10,730 nt of DNA from the IMG/VR virus record IMGVR_UViG_2703718851_000007. One strand, given 5' to 3'. Source of the stretch: a virus. Its lineage: Duplodnaviria > Heunggongvirae > Uroviricota > Caudoviricetes. This document shows positions 545 through 10,730 of this stretch, piece after piece. How positions within the stretch are numbered: position 1 is the first letter of the stretch; each line of letters starts with the position of its first letter. The notes below the pieces were generated by a model. The model did no database searches and was not told where the DNA came from. It saw only the letters and a program-made list of their open reading frames with translations. Both the position numbers and the translations under genes were made by a program.

Positions 545-1198
545 TCAAGCCTGTTTTGTATCATTAGTATTTTTAGCGGTATGTCCGTCATATGCAGCAA
601 GGTAACTGCCATAGTGACGAAATAGCATTTCTGGTCCCTTATGGCCCATCTGGCCTGCAAGCCAGAACAGGTTCGCACCACGGCTGATATGGCTGGTGGC
701 GAATGTATGCCTGGTCTGATATGGGTTACGGTACCGGATACCTGCTTTACGTAAGGTTGGTATCCACGCTTTTTTCCTTATCGCATCGGCGCTGGCCCAC
801 GGTTTGTTTGTCTTTGGATCTTCAAAGACAGTAGCATCCTTCATGAATGTAAATGGCTTCTGATTTATCAGCGCCAACATTGCCTCTTCTGTCAGTTCAA
901 CTTTACGAGTACCGGCTTTTGTCTTTGTTCCTTTGATAACACCGACAACACTTGCGCTCTGGACATGGGCAGTTTTTCCAACAAAGTCGATATCACGCCA
1001 TCGAAGGGCACATAATTCAGAACTACGCAGGCCTGTATGTATAGCGAACCGGAACAGATTTTCCCATTGTTTGTTTCCGGCTGCTGCTAGTAATGCATCA
1101 ACTTCTGCTGGTGATAGCGGATCAACCACGTAGCTGCTTTCTGCTTCTGACTTATCACTTTGGTAGCGCGAAGCAGTTAACCGCAATGCGTCGAATGT
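545..1198 (-). pseudogene. Phage tyrosine integrase, 5'-truncated (catalytic domain only)
   Basis: Minus-strand frame is open only between an in-frame TAA (plus 1199-1201) and the stop at 545; no ATG near the 5' end (first start-like codon is TTG at 1186). Translation carries tyrosine-recombinase catalytic motifs (HTGLRSSEL, RHTFATSH, MGHKGPEMLFRHYGSY) but only about 25 residues precede the catalytic domain, whereas phage integrases are typically 330-400 aa with N-terminal arm/core-binding domains. Confidence 0.7.
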
Positions 1199-1886
1199 TT
1201 ATCAGCTTAACGTTGCGAAGCTTCAGGCAGCGGCATTTTCTCAACTGTCAGATTCTGACCCGTCAAAATCTGACGCATCAAAATCTGACCCGTCAAAATT
1301 TGATGCGTCGAAATCTGGCAAAAAAGCGGGTTTTCACCCGTCAGAATCTGGCGGGGATCCGTCAGTAAAATCAAAACATGATCCGTCAGATAAAAAAACT
1401 TCTCGTCCGGACGCTTCGCAACCGGACACGCAGACGGCTGAACAGGAGTTTTTAACTCGCCATCCTGATGCGGTTGTATTCAGCCCTAAAAAGCGCCAGT
1501 GGGGAACGCAGGATGATTTGACCTGCGCACAGTGGCTCTGGAAAAAAATCATCGCCCTGTACGAGCATGCCGCCGAATGTGACGGCGAGGTGGTTCGTCC
1601 CAAAGAACCGAACTGGACAGCCTGGGCAAACGAAATTCGCCTGATGTGTGTGCAGGATGGTCGTACTCATAAACAAATCTGCGAGATGTACAGCCGCGTC
1701 AGTCGCGATCCGTTCTGGTGCCGTAACGTGCTCAGCCCGTCGAAGCTGCGGGAAAAATGGGATGAGCTTTCCCTGCGCTTATCGCCGTCCGTCAGCACGT
1801 ACACAGAAAAACGCGAAGACCCGTACTTCAAAGCCAGTTACGACAATGTGGACTACAGCCAGATCCCGGCAGGATTCAGGGGGTGA
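1167..1886 (+). pseudogene. Lambdoid replication-initiator (O-like) gene, 3' fragment carrying internal iterons; no start codon
   Basis: Plus frame is open from 1167 (after TAG 1164-1166) to TGA 1884-1886 with no ATG or GTG; the first TTG is at 1518 (the 122-aa ORF in the track). The frame encodes a pentapeptide-repeat linker (SDPSK-SDASK-SDPSK-FDASK) across the 15-bp iterons, then a C-terminal domain (...CAQWLWKKIIALYEHAAECDGEVVRPKEPNWTAWANEIR...). Iterons inside the initiator gene followed by an A+T-rich stretch is the lambda O/ori layout. Family assignment is by architecture, not a recognised sequence match. Confidence 0.45.
1249..1323. repeat. Five tandem 15-bp direct repeats (iteron-like, putative ori)
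   Basis: Units TCAGATTCTGACCCG / TCAAAATCTGACGCA / TCAAAATCTGACCCG / TCAAAATTTGATGCG / TCGAAATCTGGCAAA at 1249, 1264, 1279, 1294, 1309. Degenerate copies follow at 1341-1355 and 1386-1400, with an A+T-rich tract at 1362-1400. Confidence 0.7.
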
Positions 1887-1888
1887 TC

Positions 1889-2377
1889 ATGAGTCTTTTG
1901 AATGACGTTCAGAAATTCATTGAAGCCCATCCGGGGTGTACTTCCGGAGACATTGCGGATGCTTTTGCAGGTTACTCACGGCAGCGCGTTCTGCAGTCAG
2001 CAAGCAAGTTACGTCAGAGTGGTCGTGTGGCTCACCGTTGTGAAGGGGATACACGCAGACATTTCCCGCGCCTGACTGAGAGAGCGCAGGAGGCGGAACC
2101 GCAACCAGTTCGTGAAACCAGACCTGTGCGCAATTTCTATGTCGGCACTAACGATCCCCGGGTGATTTTGTGCCTGACCCGCCAGGCGGAAGAACTGGAG
2201 TCCAGGGGCTTATACCGTCGTGCTGCAACGGTGTGGATGGCGGCATTCCGTGAAAGCCACTCCCAGCAAGAGCGAAACAATTTTCTTGCGCGTCGTGAGC
2301 GGTGTTTACGGAAAAGCAGCAAGCGCGCTGTATCGGGTGAAGAGTGGTATCTGTCAGGGAATTACGTGGGGGCGTAA
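1889..2377 (+). CDS. PerC-family-like transcriptional regulator (phage-encoded)
   Basis: ATG at 1889 preceded by GGGGGTGA; the track ORF begins at GTG 1883. Stop TAA 2375-2377 overlaps the next start (TAATG). C-terminal segment ...TRQAEELESRGLYRRAATVWMAAFRESHSQQERNNFLARRERCL resembles the PerC/Pch motif (KGLWRRAA...W) as recalled; the N-terminal 100 aa are unassigned. Confidence 0.45.
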   Translation: MSLLNDVQKFIEAHPGCTSGDIADAFAGYSRQRVLQSASKLRQSGRVAHRCEGDTRRHFPRLTERAQEAEPQPVRETRPVRNFYVGTNDPRVILCLTRQAEELESRGLYRRAATVWMAAFRESHSQQERNNFLARRERCLRKSSKRAVSGEEWYLSGNYVGA

Positions 2378-2703
2378 TGACGACGTTAACTCAATGCCAG
2401 CAGCAGGTGCTGGATATGCTGATTTCTTACCAGAAAGAACGTGGCTTCCCGCCAACCAATCAGGAGGTGGCTACCATGCTGGGATACCGTTCAGTGAATG
2501 CAGCGGTGGAGCATCTTCGCGCACTGGAGAAAAAAGGCGTCATCACGATAAAGCGTGGCGTGGCCCGGGGGATAAAGCTTCATACCGCGGTGAAGGACGA
2601 CGACAGCGAGGCGGTCGGGATTATCCGCTCACTGCTTGCCGGTGAGGAAAACGCCAGGCTGCGTGCAGCCCACTGGTTACATGAGAGGGGCCTGAAAGTA
2701 TGA
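2377..2703 (+). CDS. LexA-like DNA-binding-domain protein lacking the S24 peptidase domain
   Basis: From ATG 2377: MTTLTQCQQQVLDMLISYQKERGFPPTNQEVATMLGYRSVNAAVEHLRALEKKGVITIKRGVARGIKL... aligns residue-for-residue with the LexA N-terminal winged helix ([68 protein letters not shown]), including the recognition-helix residues (S.NAA.EH). A hinge-like LLAGEEN (compare LexA VAAGEP) is present, but the protein stops about 20 residues later; the Ser/Lys peptidase domain is absent. The track ORF starts at GTG 2344; ATG 2377 is preferred by homology and coupling. Confidence 0.7.
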   Translation: MTTLTQCQQQVLDMLISYQKERGFPPTNQEVATMLGYRSVNAAVEHLRALEKKGVITIKRGVARGIKLHTAVKDDDSEAVGIIRSLLAGEENARLRAAHWLHERGLKV

Positions 2704-3305
2704 AGTTGATCCTTCCTTTCCCGCCCAGCGTGAACACGTACTGGCGACACCCCAACAAAGGGGCATTTGCTGGTAAGAGCCTGATAAGCGCGGCGGGGCG
2801 AAAATTTCAGAGCGCGGCGTGCGCAGCAATAGTTGAGCAGTTACGTCGTCTGCCGAAACCAACGTCGGCACCTGCTTCAGTGGAGATCGTGTTGTTTCCT
2901 CCGGATAAACGCACCTGCGCCAGCGCACCGCTGGATCCGCTGACCCGCGCCGTGGTGATTTCCCTGTTTACCTGGCGGCGGGCGGAGCCTGATGACAATG
3001 CCGACGTCCCGATGGGATGGTGGGGGGATACCTGGCCTGCGGTACAGAATGACCGTTACGGCTCCCGACTGTGGCTGCTTCAGCGCAGCAAACTGACCAA
3101 TCAGCTGGTGCAGACGGTAAGGGGGTATATCCGCGAATGCCTGCAATGGATGATTGATGACGGCGTGGTGTCCCGTATTGATCTGGATATTCGCCGCACC
3201 GGGATTAATGAACTGGGTAACAGTATCACTCTCTGGTGTCGTGACGGACCGGTAATGATTTCTTTTGATGATCTGTGGAGTGCGATAACGCATGGCGGAC
3301 AGTGA
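2700..3305 (+). CDS. Chimeric ORF: RusA-like (Holliday-junction resolvase) N-terminal fragment fused in frame to a GPW/gp25-like baseplate wedge C-terminus
   Basis: N-terminus MKLILPFPPSVNTYWRH...VEIVLFPPDKR parallels RusA (ITLPWPPSNNRYYRH...IRIECHMPDRRRRDLDN), but the catalytic Asp cluster is missing. C-terminal part (...RYGSRLWLLQRSKL...WMIDDGVVSRIDLDI...) resembles gp25/GPW baseplate proteins and sits immediately upstream of baseplate J. Start ATG 2700 overlaps the previous stop (ATGA). Confidence 0.45.
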   Translation: MKLILPFPPSVNTYWRHPNKGAFAGKSLISAAGRKFQSAACAAIVEQLRRLPKPTSAPASVEIVLFPPDKRTCASAPLDPLTRAVVISLFTWRRAEPDDNADVPMGWWGDTWPAVQNDRYGSRLWLLQRSKLTNQLVQTVRGYIRECLQWMIDDGVVSRIDLDIRRTGINELGNSITLWCRDGPVMISFDDLWSAITHGGQ

Positions 3306-4350
3306 ATTTCAGCGCCCGACGCTGGCAGAAAATATCAGTATGCTCCGTAACGATTTATTCGCCAGGCTGGACGTCAGCGACACGCTCCGGCGCATGGATG
3401 AAGACGTGCGGGCAAAGGTGTATGCGGCGGCGCTGCATACGGTTTACGGTTACATCGATTATCTGGCAATGAACATGCTGCCTGACCTGTGCGATGAGTC
3501 CTGGCTGGCGCGACATGCTGCGATGAAACGGTGTCCGCGCAAGGGGGCCACGGCTGCCAGCGGGTATATGCGCTGGGAAGGTGTCAGCGATGGCCTGAAG
3601 GTGACCGCCGGGAGTGTTATTCAGCGCGATGACCTGGTTCAGTACACGGCAACTGCCGATGCAACCAGCTCCGGTGGTGTCCTGCGCGTGCCGATCGCCT
3701 GCTCAAGTGCAGGTGCGGTCGGTAACGCTGACGACGGTACGGCATTAATCCTGGTCACGCCGGTGAATGGTCTGCCGTCTTCCGGTGTGGCTGACACCCT
3801 TACAGGCGGATTTGATACTGAAGAGCTGGAAACGTGGCGCGCCCGCGTCATTGAGCGGTATTACTGGACGCCTCAGGGCGGGGCTGACGGGGACTATGTC
3901 GTCTGGGCTAAAGAAGTGCCCGGCATTACCCGCGCATGGACATACCGTCACTGGATGGGAACGGGAACTGTCGGTGTGATGATTGCCAGCAGTGACCTGA
4001 TTAATCCCATTCCGGAAGAATCAACGGAAACGGCAGCAAGACAACATATCGTGCCACTGGCCCCGGTGGCAGGCTCTGATTTGTATGTATTCAGGCCGGT
4101 GGCACATACGGTGGATTTTCATATCCGCGTGACGCCGGACACACCAGAAATACGAGCCGCCATCACCGCGGAGTTGCGTTCGTTTCTTCTGCGTGATGGT
4201 TATCCGCAGGGAGAACTGAAGGTATCGCGTATCAGTGAGGCGATTTCCGGTGCGAACGGGGAATACAGCCATCAGTTGCTTGCACCGGTGGACAATATCT
4301 CCATTGCGAAAAACGAACTGGCGGTACTGGGGACGATTTCATGGACGTGA
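3292..4350 (+). CDS. Baseplate J-like protein (P2 gpJ / Mu gp47 family)
   Basis: 352-aa ORF. C-terminal motifs (...[33 protein letters not shown]...[24 protein letters not shown]...) parallel P2 gpJ (...ISVTSPSPACVTISVLS...LYLYPGPESEPIRAAAVKKLEAYI...). Gene order W-J-I-fibre is canonical. Start overlaps the upstream ORF by 14 nt. Confidence 0.8.
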
Positions 4351-4925
4351 CAAACGATGATTACATCCGCCTGTTATCGGCACTGTTGCCGCCCGGTCCG
4401 GCGTGGTCAGCCAGCGATCCGGCGATTGCCGGTGCGGCACCGTCATTAACCCGTGTTCATCAGCGTGCGGATGCCCTGATGCGGGAGCTGGATCCGCGCA
4501 CCACCACTGAACTGATAAACCGCTGGGAGCGTCTGTGCGGTCTGCCGGATGAATGTATTCCGGCGGGAACGCAGACCCTTCGCCAGCGTCAGCAACGGCT
4601 GGATGCGAAGGTTAACCTGGCGGGCGGCATCAACGAGGATTTTTATCTTGCACAGCTTGCTGCCCTGGGCAGACCAGATGCCACCATCACGCGATACGAC
4701 AAAAGCACGTTCACCTGCTCATCGGCCTGTACTGACGCGGTGAATGCGCCGGAATGGCGGTATTACTGGCAGGTCAACATGCCAGCCACCACCAACGCCA
4801 CCTGGATGACATGTGGCGATCCCTGTGATTCCGCACTGCGTATCTGGGGTGACACCGTTGTCGAGTGTGTGCTTAACAAACTCTGCCCGTCGCATACCTA
4901 CATAATTTTTAAATATCCGGAGTAA
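4341..4925 (+). CDS. Phage tail protein, YmfQ/DUF2313-like (gpI position)
   Basis: 194-aa ORF whose ATG 4341 overlaps the baseplate J stop (ATGGACGTGA). It occupies the slot between baseplate J and the tail fibre. Resemblance to the e14 YmfQ-type tail protein is from recollection, not an alignment. Confidence 0.5.
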
Positions 4926-4928
4926 TCC

Positions 4929-5507
4929 ATGCATCGTATAGACACGAAAACCGCGCAGAAGGATAAGTTCGGCGCGGGTAAGAACGGTTTTACCCGTGGT
5001 AACCCCCAGACTGGCACACCAGCCACCGATCTGGATGATGACTACTTTGACATGTTGCAGGAAGAACTTTGTAGCGTTGTTGAGGCATCCGGTGCCAGTC
5101 TGGAGAAGGCGCGGCACGACCAGTTGCTTACCGCGCTTCGTGCTCTGCTGTTAAGCCGCAAGAATCCGTTTGGTGATATCAAATCGGACGGCACGGTGAA
5201 AAAGGGTATTAACTTTCGCAGCCTGACCGACAGCATAGATACGTCTTCACCAATGGGACGCTTTTTCTTCCATGTCATGGGCGCACTTGCCGAAATGGAA
5301 AGGGAGCTGATAGTCGAACGTACCAGGGCGGGATTGGCTGCGGCTCGTGAAGAAGGGCGAATAGGTGGGCGTCGATCAAAGCTAACTGATGAACAGTGGG
5401 CGCAGGCAGGAAGGTTGGTTGCAGCAGGTGAATCACGACAGCGTGTGGCATTAATTTACGATGTTGGGATATCGACGCTATATAAAAAATTTCCGGCAAC
5501 CAGGTAA
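4929..5507 (+). pseudogene. Fusion of a tail-fibre N-terminal constant region (about 92 aa) to the C-terminal half of a Pin/Gin/Hin-family DNA invertase
   Basis: ATG 4929 with GGAG RBS. Residues 93-192 ([100 protein letters not shown]) are near-identical to the Pin/Gin C-terminal half including the HTH. The invertase N-terminal catalytic domain (active-site Ser about residue 10) is absent. Residues 1-92 ([47 protein letters not shown]...) look like a phage tail-fibre N-terminus. Confidence 0.75.
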
Positions 5508-5595: not shown

Positions 5596-5611
5596 TTAAT
5601 TGACGGTGATT

Positions 5612-6034
5612 ATGATGCAGTTTTTCACTCCCTCCGGGTTGCGTGCAGTGCAGCCGCTTCCACTCTATGGCGATCTTGTACCCTGTGGTTTCCCAAGCCC
5701 TGCTCAGGACTACGTTGAACAGCGTATCGATCTTAACGAGCTACTGATACAACACCCCAGCGCCACGTACTTCGTTAAGGCATCTGGTGACTCGATGATT
5801 GATGCCGGGATCGGCGAAGGCGATTTACTGGTAGTGGACAGTTCACGCAAGGCAGAGCACGGCGATATCGTTATTGCTGCGGTGGACGGGGAATTTACCG
5901 TTAAGCGCCTACAGTTATGGCCAACTGTCCAGCTTAACCCTGAAAACCGCGCCTGGTCGCCTATCATCATCGGGAGCGAAGAAACGCTCGATGTTTTTGG
6001 TGTGGTGACGTTCATCGTGAAATCGACGGGTTGA
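5612..6034 (+). CDS. umuD: UmuD (SOS mutagenesis protein, S24 peptidase-like, DNA polymerase V subunit)
   Basis: Strong similarity to E. coli UmuD over the whole length: cleavage site LVPC-GFPSP, catalytic Ser (KASGDSM) and Lys (EFTVKRLQL) all present. ATG 5612 chosen (MMQFF...); the track starts at TTG 5600. Stop TGA 6032-6034 sits 2 nt before the umuC ATG. Confidence 0.9.
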
Positions 6035-6036
6035 TC

Positions 6037-7305
6037 ATGTACGCGTTGTGTGATGTGAACTCGTTCTATGCCTCCTGTGAAACTGTATTTCGCCCGGATC
6101 TCAAAGGTAGGCCGGTTGTGGTGCTTTCCAACAATGACGGTTGTGTTATTGCCCGCAGCACAGAGGCAAAGAAACTGGGTATCAAAATGGGTGAGCCGTA
6201 CTTCAGGCAGAAGGACTTTTTCCGGCGCCATGGGGTGGTGTGCTTCAGCAGCAACTATGAGCTGTATGCGGATATGTCTAACCGGGTGATGACCACGCTG
6301 GAAGAAATGTCGCCGCGCTGTGAAATTTACTCGATAGACGAGGCATTTTGTGACCTCACTGGTGTACGTAACTGTCGTGATCTGACTGATTTTGGCCGTG
6401 AAATCCGTGCTACTGTTCTGCAGCGAACGCATCTGACAGTGGGTGTTGGCATTGCCCAGACCAAGACGCTGGCCAAGCTGGCCAACCACGCGGCCAAACA
6501 ATGGCAGCGGCAGACGGGCGGGGTGGTAGACCTGTCCAGTGTCGATCGCCAGCGCAAACTGATGGCCGCGCTGCCGGTTGATGAAGTCTGGGGCATCGGT
6601 CGGCGTATTTCGAAAAAACTGGAGGCGATGGGGATCAAGACCGTACTGCAACTCGCTGATACGGACATCCGTTTTATCCGTAAACATTTTAATGTCGTGC
6701 TGGAGCGAACGGTGCGTGAGTTACGCGGAGAACCCTGCCTGGCACTGGAAGAATTCGCGCCAGTGAAACAGGAAATTATCTGTTCCCGCTCTTTTAGCGG
6801 TCGTATCACGGAGTATGAAGAGATGCGCCAGGCGATCTGCAGCTATGCCTCGCGGGCGGCAGAGAAACTGCGTGGCGAGCACCAGTATTGCCGTTTTATC
6901 TCGGCGTTTGTGAAGACCAGCCCGTTCGCACTGAACGAGCCCTATTATGGCAATAATGCCTCCGTGAAGCTTCTGACGCCTACGCAGGACAGTCGGGATA
7001 TCATCAGTGCAGCCATCCGCTGTCTGGACGCCATATGGCAAGACGGATATCGGTATCAGAAAGCCGGGGTGATGTTGGGTGATTTCTTCAGTCAGGGCGT
7101 GGCCCAGCTCAACTTGTTCGATGATAACGCGCCGCGCCCGGGCAGTGAGAAACTGATGGAAGTGCTGGATCACCTCAATGCCAAAGGCGGGAGGGGGACG
7201 CTGTATTTTGCAGGACAGGGTATCCAGCAGCAGTGGCAGATGAAACGGGAAATGCTTTCTCCACGTTACACCACCCGATTCTCTGATCTACCCGTTGTCA
7301 GGTGA
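6037..7305 (+). CDS. umuC: UmuC (Y-family DNA polymerase V catalytic subunit)
   Basis: [22 protein letters not shown]...[11 protein letters not shown]...[29 protein letters not shown]... is near-colinear with E. coli UmuC (MFALCDVNAFYASCE...), with the catalytic Asp/Glu residues conserved. ATG 6037 preferred over TTG 6031. Confidence 0.92.
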
Positions 7306-7383
7306 TTTTCCGGTGACAGATTCTTCGGAAAACGGTGGATGAGTTTATTAGAAACGATAAATCAAATGTTCTTATTTTTGATT

Positions 7384-7420
7384 ACTAAGTCTCAGTTATA
7401 CAATTCGGCTGAGACTTAGT
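7384..7420. repeat. Perfect 12-bp inverted repeat (hairpin) between convergent umuC and the KAP NTPase gene
   Basis: ACTAAGTCTCAG (7384-7395), 13-nt loop, CTGAGACTTAGT (7409-7420). Lies at the GC-content transition; not followed by a clean U-tract on either strand. Confidence 0.5.
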
Positions 7421-7428
7421 ATGCCAAT

Positions 7429-9177
7429 TTATAGGCAAGAAATTGCGTGTCTTACTGTATTGTTTAAATCATATATCGCGCCATATTTAAAACTTTCTTG
7501 CTTACCTATGAAATAAATGTCAAGTTTTTGATTGAGGTATATAAGGCGCTGCTTTTCATTTGTGGCAAACTGAGATATGTTACTAATTCTATAATTACTT
7601 CTTAAAAAAGCGTTGAATTGCTCTATATCTTTAATGCTCCATTCTTTTAAAATGCACTTGGTCAAAAATGGTGCGCCAAGTACTTCTAGCGTTTTATAGT
7701 TTCCCATGGGATCTAATTTGAGTAATAAGTTAACATCAAATAAAGCCCAACCATCAGTTTCAATAATTTCCTTAATTGTCTTTAAGTTTTTTCTCTTTTC
7801 AATATTATTATGACGGCCTGATAATATTGAAAATATAAGTTTCCCATCATCAAAGCCACTAGTCCAACTACTGATTGGATTGTTGTTATGAAATTCAAAG
7901 TAAGTAATAATGTCCTCGTCACTAAATTCGAGTGATTTAGAACTCATGAACTGCAATGTTAGTAATGATGATTTTGGAAGATATTTATGATAAGTCAAAT
8001 ATTCATAGTTCTGAACCGCCCTAAGCCATTGGTGCAAATCACATGGTATTGTTCTAGAAATTAAACCAATAATCGTGGGGAAAAATTCTTTTTCATCTGT
8101 CTCCTGTAGTTCTGGTCGAGTTGAAACTGCAATATCAATTGTACTTAAAGGTGTTGGCACATAAAAAACATCGTCCAATATATCATAAAGAGAAACATGA
8201 CCACTGTAGTAATTTTTAAGGTGAATATTAATTTTATAATTGTGTAATGTAGACAAAAGTCTCGGTTCATGTGGATTTTCATCGCTGCTGGAATTTTGGG
8301 GTGGGATATGCTGGATGCTGTCAATGATCAGTTCGTCCATGGATTTGTTATGGATAAATAACAAGATAAAATATGACAAAATTGAGCTTAGTATGGTTTT
8401 AGAGGCGATTTTCCACTCTAGTTCAGGGTGGTTTTCTGCGTGTAAATATAATGGAAGTGCAGTATTTAAACACCTCATTAAAATTCTTATGTTAACTATG
8501 TTATGGTATGATATTATTTCTTCGAAAATCATTTTGTCTTCAGTGGGGAAGTACTGTAGTTTTTCTTCAATTATTCTCATATCTAATATGTCGCGAGGGT
8601 TTGGGTTGTAATGAAGTGAATCAGAAATAATTTTTTCTTTATGTTCTAATGACAGGTGGGATTCGGCAGATGTATTAGATATAACAATAAAATCCAAACT
8701 AGAGATTTTTGAGGTTGAATATAACGAATGACAATAAGTTAGTATTTCATTGGCCAGTGAGGGAGTGCTTAATCGCTCAATGTCATCTAATATAAATATG
8801 CCACTGAGTTTGGAGAGTATGTTCTCTCTTACACTTGAACCAATGGAACTGAACACACCATTAAGCACATTGGCACTAGCGGGAGAACCACTGCTTACAC
8901 TACCCAAACCAGAAATAGTATCTAACCCAGACTTAAGAGTGTCTATATCTTGAAGATAGTAGCAGTCAATAATCTTTGCTTTGAAATCTGCAAGAGACTT
9001 AACGCCTAGTAATGAAATATAATAAAACACATTAAGATCATAAAAACGAGGAAATACATTTTTAATAAAAAAAGTTTTACCTGTTCCCCATTTTCCATCA
9101 ATAAAAATAAGTCCATCTCTTTCGGATTGTAGAAGATGAACTATTTTTACAATCAAATTGCTATTAGAGTTTTCCAT
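7429..9177 (-). CDS. KAP-family P-loop NTPase (582 aa), AT-rich, horizontally acquired
   Basis: Walker A FIDGKWGTGKTFF at residues about 25-37. Walker B with the KAP-type Asp-Asp...Arg signature GIFILDDIERL about 90 residues later. An internal hydrophobic segment (TILSSILSYFILLFIH) is consistent with the membrane insertions described for KAP NTPases. Codon usage is dominated by AAT/ATT/TTT/AAA; GC is roughly 30% by eye versus about 50% for the flanking umuC. Confidence 0.65.
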   Translation of the reverse strand: MENSNSNLIVKIVHLLQSERDGLIFIDGKWGTGKTFFIKNVFPRFYDLNVFYYISLLGVKSLADFKAKIIDCYYLQDIDTLKSGLDTISGLGSVSSGSPASANVLNGVFSSIGSSVRENILSKLSGIFILDDIERLSTPSLANEILTYCHSLYSTSKISSLDFIVISNTSAESHLSLEHKEKIISDSLHYNPNPRDILDMRIIEEKLQYFPTEDKMIFEEIISYHNIVNIRILMRCLNTALPLYLHAENHPELEWKIASKTILSSILSYFILLFIHNKSMDELIIDSIQHIPPQNSSSDENPHEPRLLSTLHNYKINIHLKNYYSGHVSLYDILDDVFYVPTPLSTIDIAVSTRPELQETDEKEFFPTIIGLISRTIPCDLHQWLRAVQNYEYLTYHKYLPKSSLLTLQFMSSKSLEFSDEDIITYFEFHNNNPISSWTSGFDDGKLIFSILSGRHNNIEKRKNLKTIKEIIETDGWALFDVNLLLKLDPMGNYKTLEVLGAPFLTKCILKEWSIKDIEQFNAFLRSNYRISNISQFATNEKQRLIYLNQKLDIYFIGKQESFKYGAIYDLNNTVRHAISCL

Positions 9178-9254: not shown

Positions 9255-9890
9255 TTATTCAATTGAAACAATAAGATATTCACCTTGATTTTTCGCATTA
9301 CCCATCGCTCGCGTAACTGCATGCCAGATAAACTTGTCAGCTTGCACGGCACCGTAGTCGGTAATCGCTTCTGCTTCCTTGCCTCGGCGTCTTGGCGCAT
9401 CCCATTCCCGGGCTGCCTCCGGTGACAATACAAGTGGCTGTCGGTCGTGTATATCAACCAAGCCTTCATCGGCCGCAGACGTCACTATTAAAAAACCTTC
9501 GGCCTCGTCACTACGTTCGAAGGGGCGCTGCCGATTGCCGCCATGAATATTGGCTACCCATCAGTTCGGTGAATGAAGTAGGGTTGTTTTTTTGCTATCT
9601 TCGGTCTTGTCGAGTAGGGCACCGAAGTTACCTTCAACGCCCCCTCTAAGAACCGTGCGTGAGAGTTTCCAGCTCACACGGCTCAAGCCTTATCAAACAC
9701 CACTGTGAAATGATGCGGCAGGTGCAGTCAGACGCGTGGTCCGGGATCGGATATAATCTGTCCAATCCGTGTCATATGGATTAAGTGCAGATGCGACGAG
9801 TCTGTGACGGACAATTTTGACGCTCTGAGCGTGAACCAGCCTCAGTATTGTAACTTTCCCCGTATCAGTGTCCCGATAAAGACCTGACAC
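9255..9890 (-). pseudogene. SRAP/YedK-like (DUF159, abasic-site processing protein) pseudogene, 5'-truncated with nonsense and frameshift lesions
   Basis: C-terminal ORF (9255-9485) reads ...AADEGLVDIHDRQPLVLSPEAAREW...GKEAEAI...FIWHAVTRAMGNAKNQGEYL, matching the YedK C-terminus (AADQGLVDIHDRRPLVLSPEAAREW...SWHPVSRAVGNVKNQGAEL). Upstream, a different frame gives KKQPYFIHRTDG-stop-PIFMAAIGS (YedK KKQPFFIYRADGQPIFMAAIGS: a Q codon is replaced by TAG), then a frameshift. Further upstream fragments (HLHL, GKVTIL) sit in two other frames. The N-terminal MCGR catalytic-Cys region is not present. Confidence 0.65.
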
Positions 9891-9896
9891 CCCATT

Positions 9897-10730
9897 TTAC
9901 TGCTGCCACCAAGCATATAGATCTAGACCTTTGGTAATTACACCTAAGAAAATCCCTAAAACTATTAATCCAGTCACTAATGGGTGTTCTTTGAGCCTCA
10001 TCGTTAACCAATATGGATGCCAGCTTCTTGGCCAAAACCATTTATTGTTAGTTTTGAGAGTACGATCATGAATCCGCTCAGCAATATTACAGAGTATGTC
10101 GACCTTTCGTAATGTAGACATTTCTAGCTCTCTATACTTACCTTTGACATATGCCTCGGCTTCCTCAGCGCCGGCTAAGACATCTTTATCAGCGATACCA
10201 TTTTTTTCAACAAGAGCTAACATTCTACCTGCACGGCCACTTTTGGCGGTATGCCCAATATAGCTTCGTCCATATATAGAAACGGCAGCTCTCGCTAAAT
10301 CGAGTTTTCTGTCATCAGTAAGTATAAAGGGCTCGCCACCTAGGACTGAAAATCTATGCTGTAAGGCCTGAAATCCGTAATTGTTATCTCGCATGTTCCA
10401 ATGCAGAAATGTGCATTGTGCGTATCTTTTCAGGAATGTAAAGTAGTTATCTAATAGATGATGCTCAAGGATATCGAGATTTTTTTCATCTGAAACATCA
10501 AGACCTAATAATTCTGCGGATCTATTAAGAGCCCAATGATCTGTTTGCCCACTGCCTAAATTTCTGACAGCAATAGAGGTGATCCTTGTGGATTTACCGC
10601 CCACAGCATCATAAAAAGATTCACATGAATAATGGACAACGTAGCATTGATGCGCATTTGCAAAACATTTTTCGATAAAACCAATGTACTCGCTGCGATC
10701 TCTAATCTGTTGTTTGATGGAAGATGACAT
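9897..10730 (-). CDS. Hypothetical protein (277 aa) with a C-terminal transmembrane helix; function unknown
   Basis: ATG is the last 3 nt of the window (10730-10728), so the true start cannot be confirmed; stop TAA at 9899-9897. C-terminus ...EHPLVTGLIVLGIFLGVITKGLDLYAWWQQ contains a roughly 19-residue hydrophobic helix. GC is lower than the host-like segments (about 40% by eye). No recognisable catalytic motif by eye. Confidence 0.5.
   Translation of the reverse strand: MSSSIKQQIRDRSEYIGFIEKCFANAHQCYVVHYSCESFYDAVGGKSTRITSIAVRNLGSGQTDHWALNRSAELLGLDVSDEKNLDILEHHLLDNYFTFLKRYAQCTFLHWNMRDNNYGFQALQHRFSVLGGEPFILTDDRKLDLARAAVSIYGRSYIGHTAKSGRAGRMLALVEKNGIADKDVLAGAEEAEAYVKGKYRELEMSTLRKVDILCNIAERIHDRTLKTNNKWFWPRSWHPYWLTMRLKEHPLVTGLIVLGIFLGVITKGLDLYAWWQQ

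What the first reader, a model, noticed from the sequence alone, without database searches (positions are those of the whole stretch)
1249..1400. Iteron array plus A+T-rich tract (lambdoid-type origin) retained inside a start-less replication-initiator fragment
Five head-to-tail 15-bp repeats (consensus TCAAAATCTGACNCG) plus degenerate copies are followed by an A+T-rich stretch, the organisation of ori-lambda inside gene O. The 15-bp period equals 5 codons, so the repeats also encode a pentapeptide-repeat linker. The initiator gene has lost its 5' end, so the origin is orphaned. It could still be fired in trans, or titrate the initiator of a superinfecting phage with the same iteron specificity.
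Basis: seen in the sequence. Interest (0 to 1): 0.5.

Follow-up and report, generated by a model that had tools for sequence, protein, structure and literature searches.

The report
Orphaned phage replication origin remnant
This stretch is the leftover replication origin of an SfV/e14-type temperate phage, sitting in a replication-initiator gene that has lost its DNA-binding front end; this is an ordinary kind of origin, but many independent deletions cut this gene at the same nucleotide.

Summary
Six copies of a 12-bp dyad-symmetric core (TCARAATCTGRC) lie at 1248-1352. Five are head-to-tail at 15-bp spacing, and no copy lies elsewhere in the 10.7-kb window. A GATC-containing A-rich tract follows at 1356-1398.

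The host ORF (1178-1886) is the C-terminal 236 codons of a 313-codon "replication initiation O-like" gene. That gene is intact in E. coli prophages and in Shigella phages SfII and SfIV. The first 78 codons, which encode the winged-helix DNA-binding domain, were deleted together with about 6.5 kb up to the middle of an integrase gene.

The protein aligns collinearly with lambda O. The repeats fall where lambda's iterons lie, and the A-rich tract falls where lambda's AT-rich tract lies.

Across 77 loci from many Enterobacterales genera the repeat is conserved as DNA rather than as peptide. Ser codons are TCA 97% and TCT 88%, and Lys is AAA 100%, while synonymous sites in the neighbouring domain are saturated. 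In phiP27 one copy is read in a different frame.

So this is an orphaned lambdoid-type origin, a new member of a known kind. Firing in trans or titrating the initiator is plausible but untested.

One unexpected result: at least nine independent deletions break this gene within the same 4 nt (GGG^TA^ACC).

The parts
545..1179 (-). Truncated tyrosine integrase. Only the C-terminal catalytic half remains, about 211 of 391 codons. Its N-terminal half was removed by the same deletion that removed the front of the initiator gene.
   Evidence: Pfam Phage_integrase, E 3e-16, on the 213-aa ORF. The intact 391-aa gene in E. coli TA8571 (L087:9545-10720) is identical up to window 1179.
1178..1179 (.). 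Deletion junction. The dinucleotide TA is shared by the integrase side (CAGTTA|CC) and the initiator side (GGGTA|ACC). About 6.5 kb is lost: the front half of int, the excision and early-left genes, the cI/cro/cII region, and codons 1-78 of the initiator.
   Evidence: Four-way alignment A2. Gene order of the intact prophage. This junction is not found in any of 5426 complete E. coli genomes.
1178..1886 (+). Start-less 3' fragment of an O-like replication initiator gene: codons 79-313 plus the stop. It has no ATG, GTG or TTG in frame before 1518.
   Evidence: phrog_391 'replication initiation O-like', E 2e-95, matching profile positions 78-298. 99.6% identical to the intact gene L001:3768-4709 from nt 234 onward. 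The ORF list shows its first start codon at 1518.
1248..1319 (.). Five contiguous iterons at 15-bp spacing. The 12-bp cores are at 1248, 1263, 1278, 1293 and 1308: TCAGATTCTGAC, TCAAAATCTGAC, TCAAAATCTGAC, TCAAAATTTGAT and TCGAAATCTGGC. The 3-bp spacers alternate between CCG and GC[AG]. These are the presumed binding sites of the initiator's winged-helix domain.
   Evidence: Conserved at synonymous positions in 77 loci.
1320..1340 (.). A 21-bp spacer, AAAAAAGCGGGTTTTCACCCG, with an A6 tract followed by a T4 tract. It separates iteron 5 from iteron 6. Its DNA is conserved even where the reading frame differs, as in phiP27 and L077.
   Evidence: On the minus strand it scores as a terminator-like hairpin, but that hairpin is not conserved in relatives.
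1341..1352 (.). Sixth iteron, TCAGAATCTGGC, within CCGTCAGAATCTGGCGG, which is a near-perfect 8+1+8 dyad.
   Evidence: The same DNA is read as LQNL/RQNL instead of SES in phiP27 (L006) and L077. Distant relatives carry the perfect palindrome CCTCCAGAATCTGGAGG.
1356..1398 (.). A-rich tract built from two 24-bp repeats that each start with a Dam site (GATCCGTCAGTAAAATCAAAACAT and GATCCGTCAGATAAAAAAACTTCT). This is the candidate DNA-unwinding element. The exchangeable origin module ends at about 1390.
   Evidence: Repeat family D3. 67-73% A+T and 49% A on the top strand. GATC is 5.7-fold enriched here across 77 loci. phiP27-type genes have 2.4-2.5 copies of a 24-bp GATC unit. In allele L090, homology resumes at gene nt 446, which is window 1390.
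1440..1775 (+). Coding sequence for the lambda-O-like C-terminal domain (codons about 166-277), which in lambda contacts the helicase-loading protein P.
   Evidence: BLASTP against lambda O: residues 70-277 of this protein align with residues 78-270 of lambda O, E 1e-25. tblastn hits to lambda, 434 and Stx phages.

Best explanation
Window 1248-1398 is the cis-acting replication origin of an SfV/SfII/SfIV/e14-type temperate phage, built on the plan of ori-lambda. In the intact phage, the N-terminal winged-helix domain of the 313-aa O-like initiator would bind as dimers to the dyad-symmetric 12-bp iterons. The iterons lie in the part of its own gene that encodes the flexible linker. The resulting nucleoprotein complex would open the adjacent GATC-containing A-rich repeats, and the lambda-O-like C-terminal domain would bring in the helicase.

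In this window an illegitimate deletion with 2 bp of microhomology removed the DNA-binding domain and all upstream control. What remains is the complete cis element, which is sequence-identical to that of the active phage SfIV, plus a non-translatable C-terminal coding remnant. The origin is therefore silent on its own and can only be bound or fired by an initiator supplied in trans by a related phage or prophage.

Shown here: the anatomy, the homology, the positional correspondence with ori-lambda, the DNA-level constraint and the modular inheritance. Inferred: initiator binding, unwinding, and any activity in trans.
For: 1. Gene identity. phrog_391 'replication initiation O-like' at E 5e-135 for the intact gene and 2e-95 for the fragment. 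HTH_36 winged helix at residues 23-70, present only in the intact gene.

2. Homology with lambda O. The alignment is collinear at E 1e-25. Lambda's iterons (gene nt 349-433) and AT-rich tract align with this gene's repeats (nt 303-407) and A-rich tract (nt 412-454).

3. DNA-level selection. In 77 loci from many genera, S[KE]S[DE] units use TCA 97%, AAA for every Lys, and TCT 88%. Elsewhere in the same genes these figures are 12-21% (TCA), 57-64% (AAA) and 9-11% (TCT). Four- and six-fold degenerate sites in the adjacent domain are saturated (top-codon fraction 0.48). The 3-bp spacer is free to vary.

4. Frame independence. In phiP27 and L077 the motif TTTT[CG]ACCC[GT]TCAGAATCTG is kept although it is translated in another frame.

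5. Modularity. phiNP, YeP3 and phiP27 share the N-domain, iterons and A-rich tract but have unrelated C-domains. Allele L090 shares the C-domain but has a different N-domain with its own five 23-bp dyad iterons at the same place. The boundary is at gene nt 446.

6. Iterons are dyad symmetric, for example GTCAGATTCTGAC and, in distant relatives, CCTCCAGAATCTGGAGG.

7. The origin region 1178-1567 has no difference from SfIV, an isolated temperate phage (PMC3851460).

8. The lambda paradigm of iterons plus an AT-rich tract in the middle of gene O is described in PMC7466680.
Against: No experiment bears on this origin. No paper in the searchable library describes it, and the SfV genome paper could not be read.

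The A-rich tract is only 67-73% A+T, against 78% in lambda.

These phages have no lambda-P, DnaC or DnaB homologue next to the initiator, so the helicase-loading step is unknown.

The 15-bp centre-to-centre spacing is tighter than in lambda (about 20-24 bp).

No DnaA box or convincing promoter lies near the remnant. Transcriptional activation, which lambda needs, may therefore be missing here.
Confidence: 0.8

Rival explanations
1. The repeats are only a coding-repeat expansion that makes a flexible Ser/Lys/Asp-rich linker, with no role as DNA.
For: The period is exactly 5 codons and the peptide is a low-complexity SKSD[PA] repeat. Copy number varies from 3 to 9 among relatives, as slippage would produce.
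Against: Synonymous positions are nearly invariant across genera whose other synonymous sites are saturated, and two different Ser codons are fixed at two positions of the unit. One copy is conserved in a different reading frame. An unrelated N-domain allele carries a different dyad repeat at the same site.
Confidence: 0.04
2. The repeats are binding sites for the initiator or another protein, but they serve autoregulation, copy control or incompatibility, while replication starts elsewhere in the phage.
For: DNA-level constraint shows a DNA function, not which one. The A-rich tract is modest. The phages lack an adjacent helicase loader. Iterons in plasmids also act in copy control (established knowledge).
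Against: The positional homology with ori-lambda is exact in a collinear alignment. The repeats travel with the N-domain and with a GATC/A-rich repeat tract as one module. No other repeat array was seen in the 8.8 kb of the intact prophage region (L001) or the 5.9 kb of SfIV (L002) that were read, though no repeat scan was run on those two loci.
Confidence: 0.1
3. The orphan origin is kept because it is useful. As a chromosomal decoy it would bind the initiator of incoming SfV/e14-type phages, or fire in situ and abort their growth, acting as superinfection interference.
For: Plasmids carrying lambda iterons ITN3-4 together with oop block growth of phages that use the lambda replication system (PMC3349717). 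The remnant is identical to the SfIV origin. The same kind of remnant exists in K-12 CPS-53 (yfdO) and in other contigs. Cognate phages are common in E. coli.
Against: It is a single chromosomal copy, whereas the lambda phenotype needs multicopy plasmids and oop transcription. The K-12 copy carries substitutions in iteron 1 and in the spacer at about the same density as the rest of the fragment, so there is no sign of purifying selection. This junction is absent from all 5426 complete E. coli genomes.
Confidence: 0.08

Closest known systems
ori-lambda inside gene O of phage lambda, with its Stx-phage variants (933W and the Stx-converting phage called P27 in PMC7466680, which have 6 iterons)
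   Same: The origin lies in the middle of the initiator gene, between the DNA-binding N-domain and a C-domain that is homologous here (E 1e-25). It has an array of dyad-symmetric iterons followed by an A-rich tract at the same aligned positions. Iteron number varies among relatives, and the N-domain and origin are inherited together (PMC7466680).
   Different: The N-domain is an HTH_36 winged helix that scored no significant Pfam or BLASTP similarity to lambda O's N-domain. The iterons have a 12-bp core at a strict 15-bp head-to-tail spacing, with one detached sixth copy, instead of four 18-bp sites spaced 20-24 bp apart. The A-rich tract is weaker and consists of two 24-bp GATC-initiated repeats. 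No P-like gene follows.
Replication modules of phiP27, Citrobacter phiNP, Yersinia YeP3 and Klebsiella phage 1 LV-2017
   Same: They have the same N-domain family, the same TCARAATCTGA iterons at a 15-bp period starting about 300-360 nt into the gene, and the same GATC/A-rich repeats.
   Different: Except in the Klebsiella phage, their C-terminal domains are unrelated to lambda O (DnaD-like 'replisome organizer' type). phiP27 is followed by DnaC-like and DnaB-like genes. Those genes are intact, whereas the window's copy is truncated.
yfdO (oweS) in cryptic prophage CPS-53 of E. coli K-12
   Same: It is the same gene fragment, starting at the same nucleotide (TAACCGCAATG...). It has the same six iterons and A-rich tract and is followed by the same PerC-like yfdN. 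It is 98.4% identical.
   Different: The deletion partner differs: 20 nt upstream of yfdP rather than inside an integrase gene. There are three substitutions in the origin region. K-12 annotates only a 122-aa ORF from the TTG that corresponds to window 1518.
Iteron origins of plasmids (for example P1 oriR, pPS10, RK2)
   Same: Arrays of initiator-binding repeats lie next to an A-rich unwinding region, and the initiators have winged-helix DNA-binding domains. GATC sites in the unwinding region recall P1 oriR and oriC (established knowledge, not tested here).
   Different: Plasmid iterons lie outside the rep gene and are usually about 17-22 bp. No sequence relationship was tested or found here. 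The PDB search gave only weak MarR-type hits.

Membership tests
Lambdoid 'origin inside the initiator gene' (ori-lambda type) | The origin lies within the coding sequence of the phage initiator, between its DNA-binding N-domain and its C-domain | tested here: met
   In the intact gene, HTH_36 occupies residues 23-70, the repeats are at nt 303-407, and the lambda-O-like domain covers residues about 166-277.
Lambdoid 'origin inside the initiator gene' (ori-lambda type) | Initiator homologous to lambda O | tested here: met
   BLASTP E 1e-25 over residues 70-277 against lambda O residues 78-270. tblastn E 4e-18. PHROG 'replication initiation O-like'. No significant similarity was scored between the N-terminal DNA-binding domain and lambda's.
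Lambdoid 'origin inside the initiator gene' (ori-lambda type) | Several repeated, dyad-symmetric initiator-binding sites (iterons) | tested here: met
   Six sites, with 0 of 200 shuffles reaching the count, and matches on both strands. DNA-level conservation is shown.
Lambdoid 'origin inside the initiator gene' (ori-lambda type) | An A+T-rich unwinding tract immediately to the right of the iterons | tested here: inconclusive
   Positions 1356-1398 are 67-73% A+T. This is the richest stretch of the gene fragment but only about the 90th percentile of the window. Lambda's tract is 78%. The position matches lambda's tract in the alignment.
Lambdoid 'origin inside the initiator gene' (ori-lambda type) | N-domain and origin are inherited as one specificity module, separable from the C-domain | tested here: met
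   phiNP, YeP3 and phiP27 keep the N-domain and origin with other C-domains. L090 keeps the C-domain with another N-domain and other iterons, with the boundary at nt 446.
Lambdoid 'origin inside the initiator gene' (ori-lambda type) | The initiator binds the iterons, and replication starts there | not testable with these tools
   This needs EMSA or footprinting, an ori-plasmid assay or marker-frequency analysis. No published data were found.
Lambdoid 'origin inside the initiator gene' (ori-lambda type) | A partner helicase-loader gene (lambda P or a DnaC-like gene) downstream of the initiator | tested here: not met
   The initiator is followed by PerC-like and LexA-like genes in the window, in L001 and in SfIV. 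phiP27 does have DnaC-like and DnaB-like genes.
Simple coding tandem repeat (protein linker only) | Conservation explained by the peptide, with synonymous sites free to vary | tested here: not met
   TCA 97%, AAA 100% and TCT 88% at synonymous sites, against a saturated background. One copy is conserved in another frame.

The most novel reading that the evidence does not exclude
The initiator gene of this phage family carries a nucleotide-precise break site (GGG^TA^ACC, gene nt 233-236), 69 bp to the left of the origin. At least nine independent deletions, each with a different partner, have separated the DNA-binding domain from the origin at this site. The window, K-12 yfdO and K-12 ymfN are three of them.

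This pattern suggests a site-specific cut. Candidates are a restriction or homing-type nuclease, an anti-origin nuclease of a competitor, or a break tied to initiation or fork arrest at the origin. Random prophage decay would not give this pattern.

The orphan origins left behind could then act as initiator decoys.
Probability: 0.3. Interest if true: 0.7.

Novelty: new member of a known kind. Interest (0 to 1): 0.4.

Why it matters
It defines, from sequence alone, the origin and iteron code (TCARAATCTGA at a 15-bp period, followed by GATC/A-rich repeats) of a widespread group of enterobacterial temperate phages. The group includes the Shigella serotype-converting phages SfII, SfIV and SfV. I found no description of their origin in the literature I could search.

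It also shows that E. coli chromosomes, K-12 included, carry silent but intact copies of that origin. Those copies could be fired or bound whenever a related phage is induced or infects. That would matter for local over-replication, for interference between prophages, and for interpreting coverage peaks in sequencing data.

The recurrent, nucleotide-precise breakpoint beside the origin is a separate lead. It suggests that prophage decay at this locus is driven by a specific DNA break and not by random deletion.

Tried and rejected
- Pfam on the window fragment alone gave nothing. Identification needed PHROGs and the intact homologue.
- The PDB sequence search gave only weak MarR-type hits at E 0.008.
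- There is no DnaA box with up to 1 mismatch and only one weak IHF-like match in 1100-1500. The promoter scan was at chance level, and Rfam found nothing in the region.
- Literature: no paper in the library describes this origin or contains the iteron sequence. The hits were unrelated primers. The SfIV genome paper mentions only a 'replication module'. The SfV genome paper is not held, and the e14 analysis paper was cited by others but not found as a record.

For the breakpoint hot spot I considered and set aside four ideas:
1. A hairpin or cruciform. The DNA fold has z = -0.6.
2. A Pin/Hin/Gin-type pseudo-site. By eye, the half-sites do not match the AAACC-NN-GGTTT consensus I recalled from memory. 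This is not a tool result.
3. Reciprocal products of a single rearrangement. The partners are not neighbours.
4. Cutting at GGTNACC by a BstEII-type enzyme. All junctions fall inside the predicted 5-nt overhang, and the e14 partner has its own GGTAACC 12 nt away. However, the other GGTNACC sites of the prophage show no comparable cluster, and most partners lack the site. This idea is neither supported nor excluded.

I did not run structure prediction or the large protein-database searches, because the answer did not depend on them.

Full report
**The observation**

The window carries a tandem array with a 15-bp period at 1254-1317. In register, the 12-bp cores sit at 1248, 1263, 1278, 1293 and 1308, with a detached sixth copy at 1341.

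The pattern TCARAATCTGRC with up to two mismatches matches ten times. These are six sites, several matching on both strands because the core is a dyad, for example GTCAGATTCTGAC. All of them lie in 1247-1352. Shuffles give three scattered matches on average, and none of 200 shuffles reaches ten.

Downstream there are two 24-bp repeats that both begin GATCCGTCAG and continue with A-runs (1356-1398). This tract is 67-73% A+T. It is the richest part of the gene fragment but only about the 90th percentile of the window, and it is weaker than lambda's 78%.

In the open frame the 15-bp unit is five codons and reads S-K-S-D-[P/A].

**The surrounding gene**

The open frame 1178-1886 has no start codon before 1518 and gives no Pfam hit on its own. 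It matches PHROG 391, 'replication initiation O-like', at E 2e-95 over profile positions 78-298.

From position 1178 on it is 99.6% identical to a 313-codon gene in an E. coli prophage (L001:3768-4709). The same protein is encoded by Shigella phages SfIV and SfII, and SfIV was isolated as a temperate phage (PMC3851460).

The intact protein has an HTH_36 winged-helix domain at residues 23-70. The window lacks codons 1-78.

To the left of the junction, on the other strand, lies the catalytic half of a tyrosine integrase. The intact copy of that integrase in E. coli TA8571 is identical up to window 1179. The gene order of that prophage shows what the deletion removed: the front of int, the early-left genes, the cI/cro/cII region and the start of the initiator, about 6.5 kb in all. 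The two sides share the dinucleotide TA. This particular junction occurs in none of 5426 complete E. coli genomes.

**Whether the array is an origin**

Four independent lines of evidence point to an origin.

1. *Position.* The protein aligns collinearly with lambda O (residues 70-277 against 78-270, E 1e-25). Lambda's annotated iterons are at gene nt 349-433, with the AT-rich tract after them. These align with this gene's repeats (nt 303-407) and A-rich tract (nt 412-454). Placing the origin (iterons plus an AT-rich tract) in the middle of gene O is the lambdoid paradigm (PMC7466680).

2. *DNA-level constraint.* I fetched 80 related loci from genomes of many Enterobacterales genera. The motif recurs at 15-bp spacing starting about 300-330 nt into the gene in most of the full-length copies, with copy number from 3 to 9; the most distant relatives keep at most one copy of this exact core.
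   - In the N-domain of the same 77 genes, synonymous sites are saturated. The commonest codon accounts for 48% at four- and six-fold degenerate conserved residues.
   - In the S[KE]S[DE] units the first Ser is TCA in 97% of cases, every Lys is AAA, and the second Ser is TCT in 88%. Elsewhere in the genes the figures are 12-21%, 57-64% and 9-11%. The fifth codon varies freely.
   - Two different Ser codons fixed at two positions of a repeat cannot be explained by codon bias or by slippage alone.

3. *Frame independence.* In phiP27 and in L077 the stretch TTTT[CG]ACCC[GT]TCAGAATCTG is kept, although a 1-nt indel makes it read LTLQNL or FTRQNL instead of FHPSES.

4. *Modularity.*
   - phiNP, YeP3 and phiP27 share the N-domain, the iterons and the A-rich repeats, but carry unrelated C-domains.
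   - An E. coli allele (L090) shares the C-domain from gene nt 446 (window 1390). It has an unrelated N-domain and, at the same place, five 23-bp dyad repeats of its own followed by A-rich repeats.
   - So the N-domain, the iterons and the A-rich tract behave as the specificity module. This is consistent with what I recall of classic hybrid-phage work on lambda-type initiators (established knowledge, not checked here).

Two further details fit the same picture. GATC is 5.7-fold enriched in the A-rich region across the 77 loci, and many relatives encode an adenine methylase just downstream. Distant relatives carry the perfect palindrome CCTCCAGAATCTGGAGG, which suggests a dimeric binder.

**State of the remnant**

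From 1178 to 1567 the window has no difference from SfIV or from the intact prophage. The cis element is therefore complete. The DNA-binding domain, the upstream promoter region and any start codon are gone.

Nothing else in the 10.7 kb encodes an initiator. The rest of the genome is unknown.

Cognate initiators are common. 1573 of 5426 complete E. coli genomes hold at least 80% of an 833-nt query covering the upstream flank, the wHTH coding part and the origin of the intact gene. Plasmid-borne lambda iterons together with oop block phages that use the lambda replication system (PMC3349717). Both ideas remain untested, and a single chromosomal copy without upstream transcription may do little.

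**Differences from lambda**

- No significant similarity was scored between the N-domain and lambda O's N-domain.
- The iterons are 12-bp cores packed at 15 bp, with a 30-bp super-period, and one detached copy lies after an A6/T4 spacer.
- The unwinding candidate is weaker and is built from GATC-initiated repeats.
- No P, DnaC or DnaB homologue follows the gene in this phage group. How the helicase is recruited is therefore open.

I file this as a new member of a known kind. I found no description of this origin in the searchable literature, but the SfV genome paper could not be read.

**An unexpected by-product: a deletion hot spot**

The break in the initiator gene is not unique to this window.

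- K-12's CPS-53 fragment yfdO starts at the same T.
- K-12's e14 gene ymfN keeps exactly the complementary part, codons 1-78, fused in frame to a terminase fragment.
- Searching phage-like contigs and E. coli genomes gave further junctions with other partners: the 3' end of cro, the cro-cII spacer, a tail-fibre assembly gene, a Lom/Ail-like gene (identified only by eye from a translation) and two others.

In all, nine different junctions fall within GGG^T^A^AC, the centre of the palindrome GGTAACC. Fragments that keep the right part always begin TAACC. Fragments that keep the left part end GGGT, GGGTA or GGGTAA. Where the intact partner sequence is known, the microhomology is TA (three cases), TAACCG or GGT.

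In the contig sample, five of ten homology ends between gene nt 234 and 940 lie at 234-239. The other breakpoint clusters found across the 8.8-kb L001 region have one-directional breakpoints, and those I could place against the annotation lie at gene boundaries. This cluster lies inside a gene and is used from both sides.

I could not explain it. There is no strong hairpin. By eye there is no invertase-like site. The restriction-site idea (G^GTNACC) fits the position of all junctions, but the other such sites of the prophage do not show comparable clusters. The site lies 69 bp to the left of the first iteron and cleanly separates the DNA-binding domain from the origin. A site-specific nuclease or an origin-linked break are the readings I consider worth testing.

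**Verdict**

It is an orphaned, sequence-intact lambdoid-type origin of the SfV/e14 phage group, inside a 5'-truncated O-like gene in a heavily deleted prophage. The breakpoint hot spot adds modest interest to an otherwise ordinary finding.

Noticed in passing
window 1177-1180 (= L001:4000-4003, gene nt 233-236): Deletion hot spot. At least nine junctions with different partners all break the initiator gene inside GGG^TA^ACC. They include this window, K-12 yfdO (CPS-53), K-12 ymfN (e14), ETEC4067 and five phage-like contigs. Right-hand fragments always start TAACC, and left-hand fragments end GGGT(A)(A). The mechanism is unexplained.
   Followed up: partly
L076/L086 and L088 (E. coli K-12-type e14 and CPS-53): One K-12 genome holds both complementary halves of this gene at two different prophages. 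Codons 1-78, the winged helix, are fused in frame to a terminase fragment in e14 (ymfN, 455 aa). Codons 79-313, with the intact iterons, are in CPS-53 (yfdO).
   Followed up: partly
L090:2022-2203 (E. coli K-15KW01): An alternative allele of the initiator has an unrelated N-domain. It carries five 23-bp dyad repeats (CATCGGGTCAAAGTGACCTGATG) followed by 12-bp A-rich repeats at the same place in the gene. Homology to this window's gene resumes at nt 446.
   Followed up: partly
L091:562-580 (lambda 39161-39179), compared with window 1338-1354: The palindrome to the right of lambda's AT-rich tract, CGTCAGAGAATTCTGGCG, has the same 7-nt half-sites as this family's iteron CGTCAGAATCTGGCG. The central spacing differs and it is read in a different frame. 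This could be a relic of shared ancestry or chance.
   Followed up: no
window 1327-1340, minus strand: The spacer between iterons 5 and 6 scores as a terminator-like hairpin on the minus strand (CGGGTGAAAACCCG followed by a T-run). The hairpin is not conserved in relatives, but the T-tract and the ACCC motif are.
   Followed up: no
window 1093-1368, plus strand: A chimeric 91-codon ORF starts with ATG in antisense integrase sequence, crosses the junction, and reads the iterons in the +1 frame as QNLT repeats. It is probably an accident of the deletion.
   Followed up: no
window 2344-5507: A LexA-like gene is followed directly by Mu-type baseplate genes (GP46, Baseplate_J, Gp48-like YmfQ). A resolvase/invertase ORF follows whose Pfam match covers only the C-terminal part of the catalytic domain. 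Homology to other E. coli prophages restarts at 2902. The element therefore has further internal deletions.
   Followed up: no
window 5600-9177: A umuD-like (Peptidase_S24) and umuC-like (Y-family polymerase) gene pair lies at 5600-7305. A 582-aa KAP/AAA-type P-loop NTPase lies on the opposite strand at 7429-9177.
   Followed up: no
window 9609-9686, minus strand: Rfam match to the 77-position Group II catalytic intron model (RF00029; 53.6 bits against a gathering score of 40). The upstream 277-aa ORF (9897-10730, minus strand) has no Pfam hit.
   Followed up: no
L001-L005 and L087, downstream of the initiator gene: Many relatives encode an N6-adenine (Dam-like) methyltransferase just after the initiator or PerC-like gene, and GATC is 5.7-fold enriched in the origin's A-rich part. 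Methylation may control this origin. The window's element lacks the methylase.
   Followed up: partly
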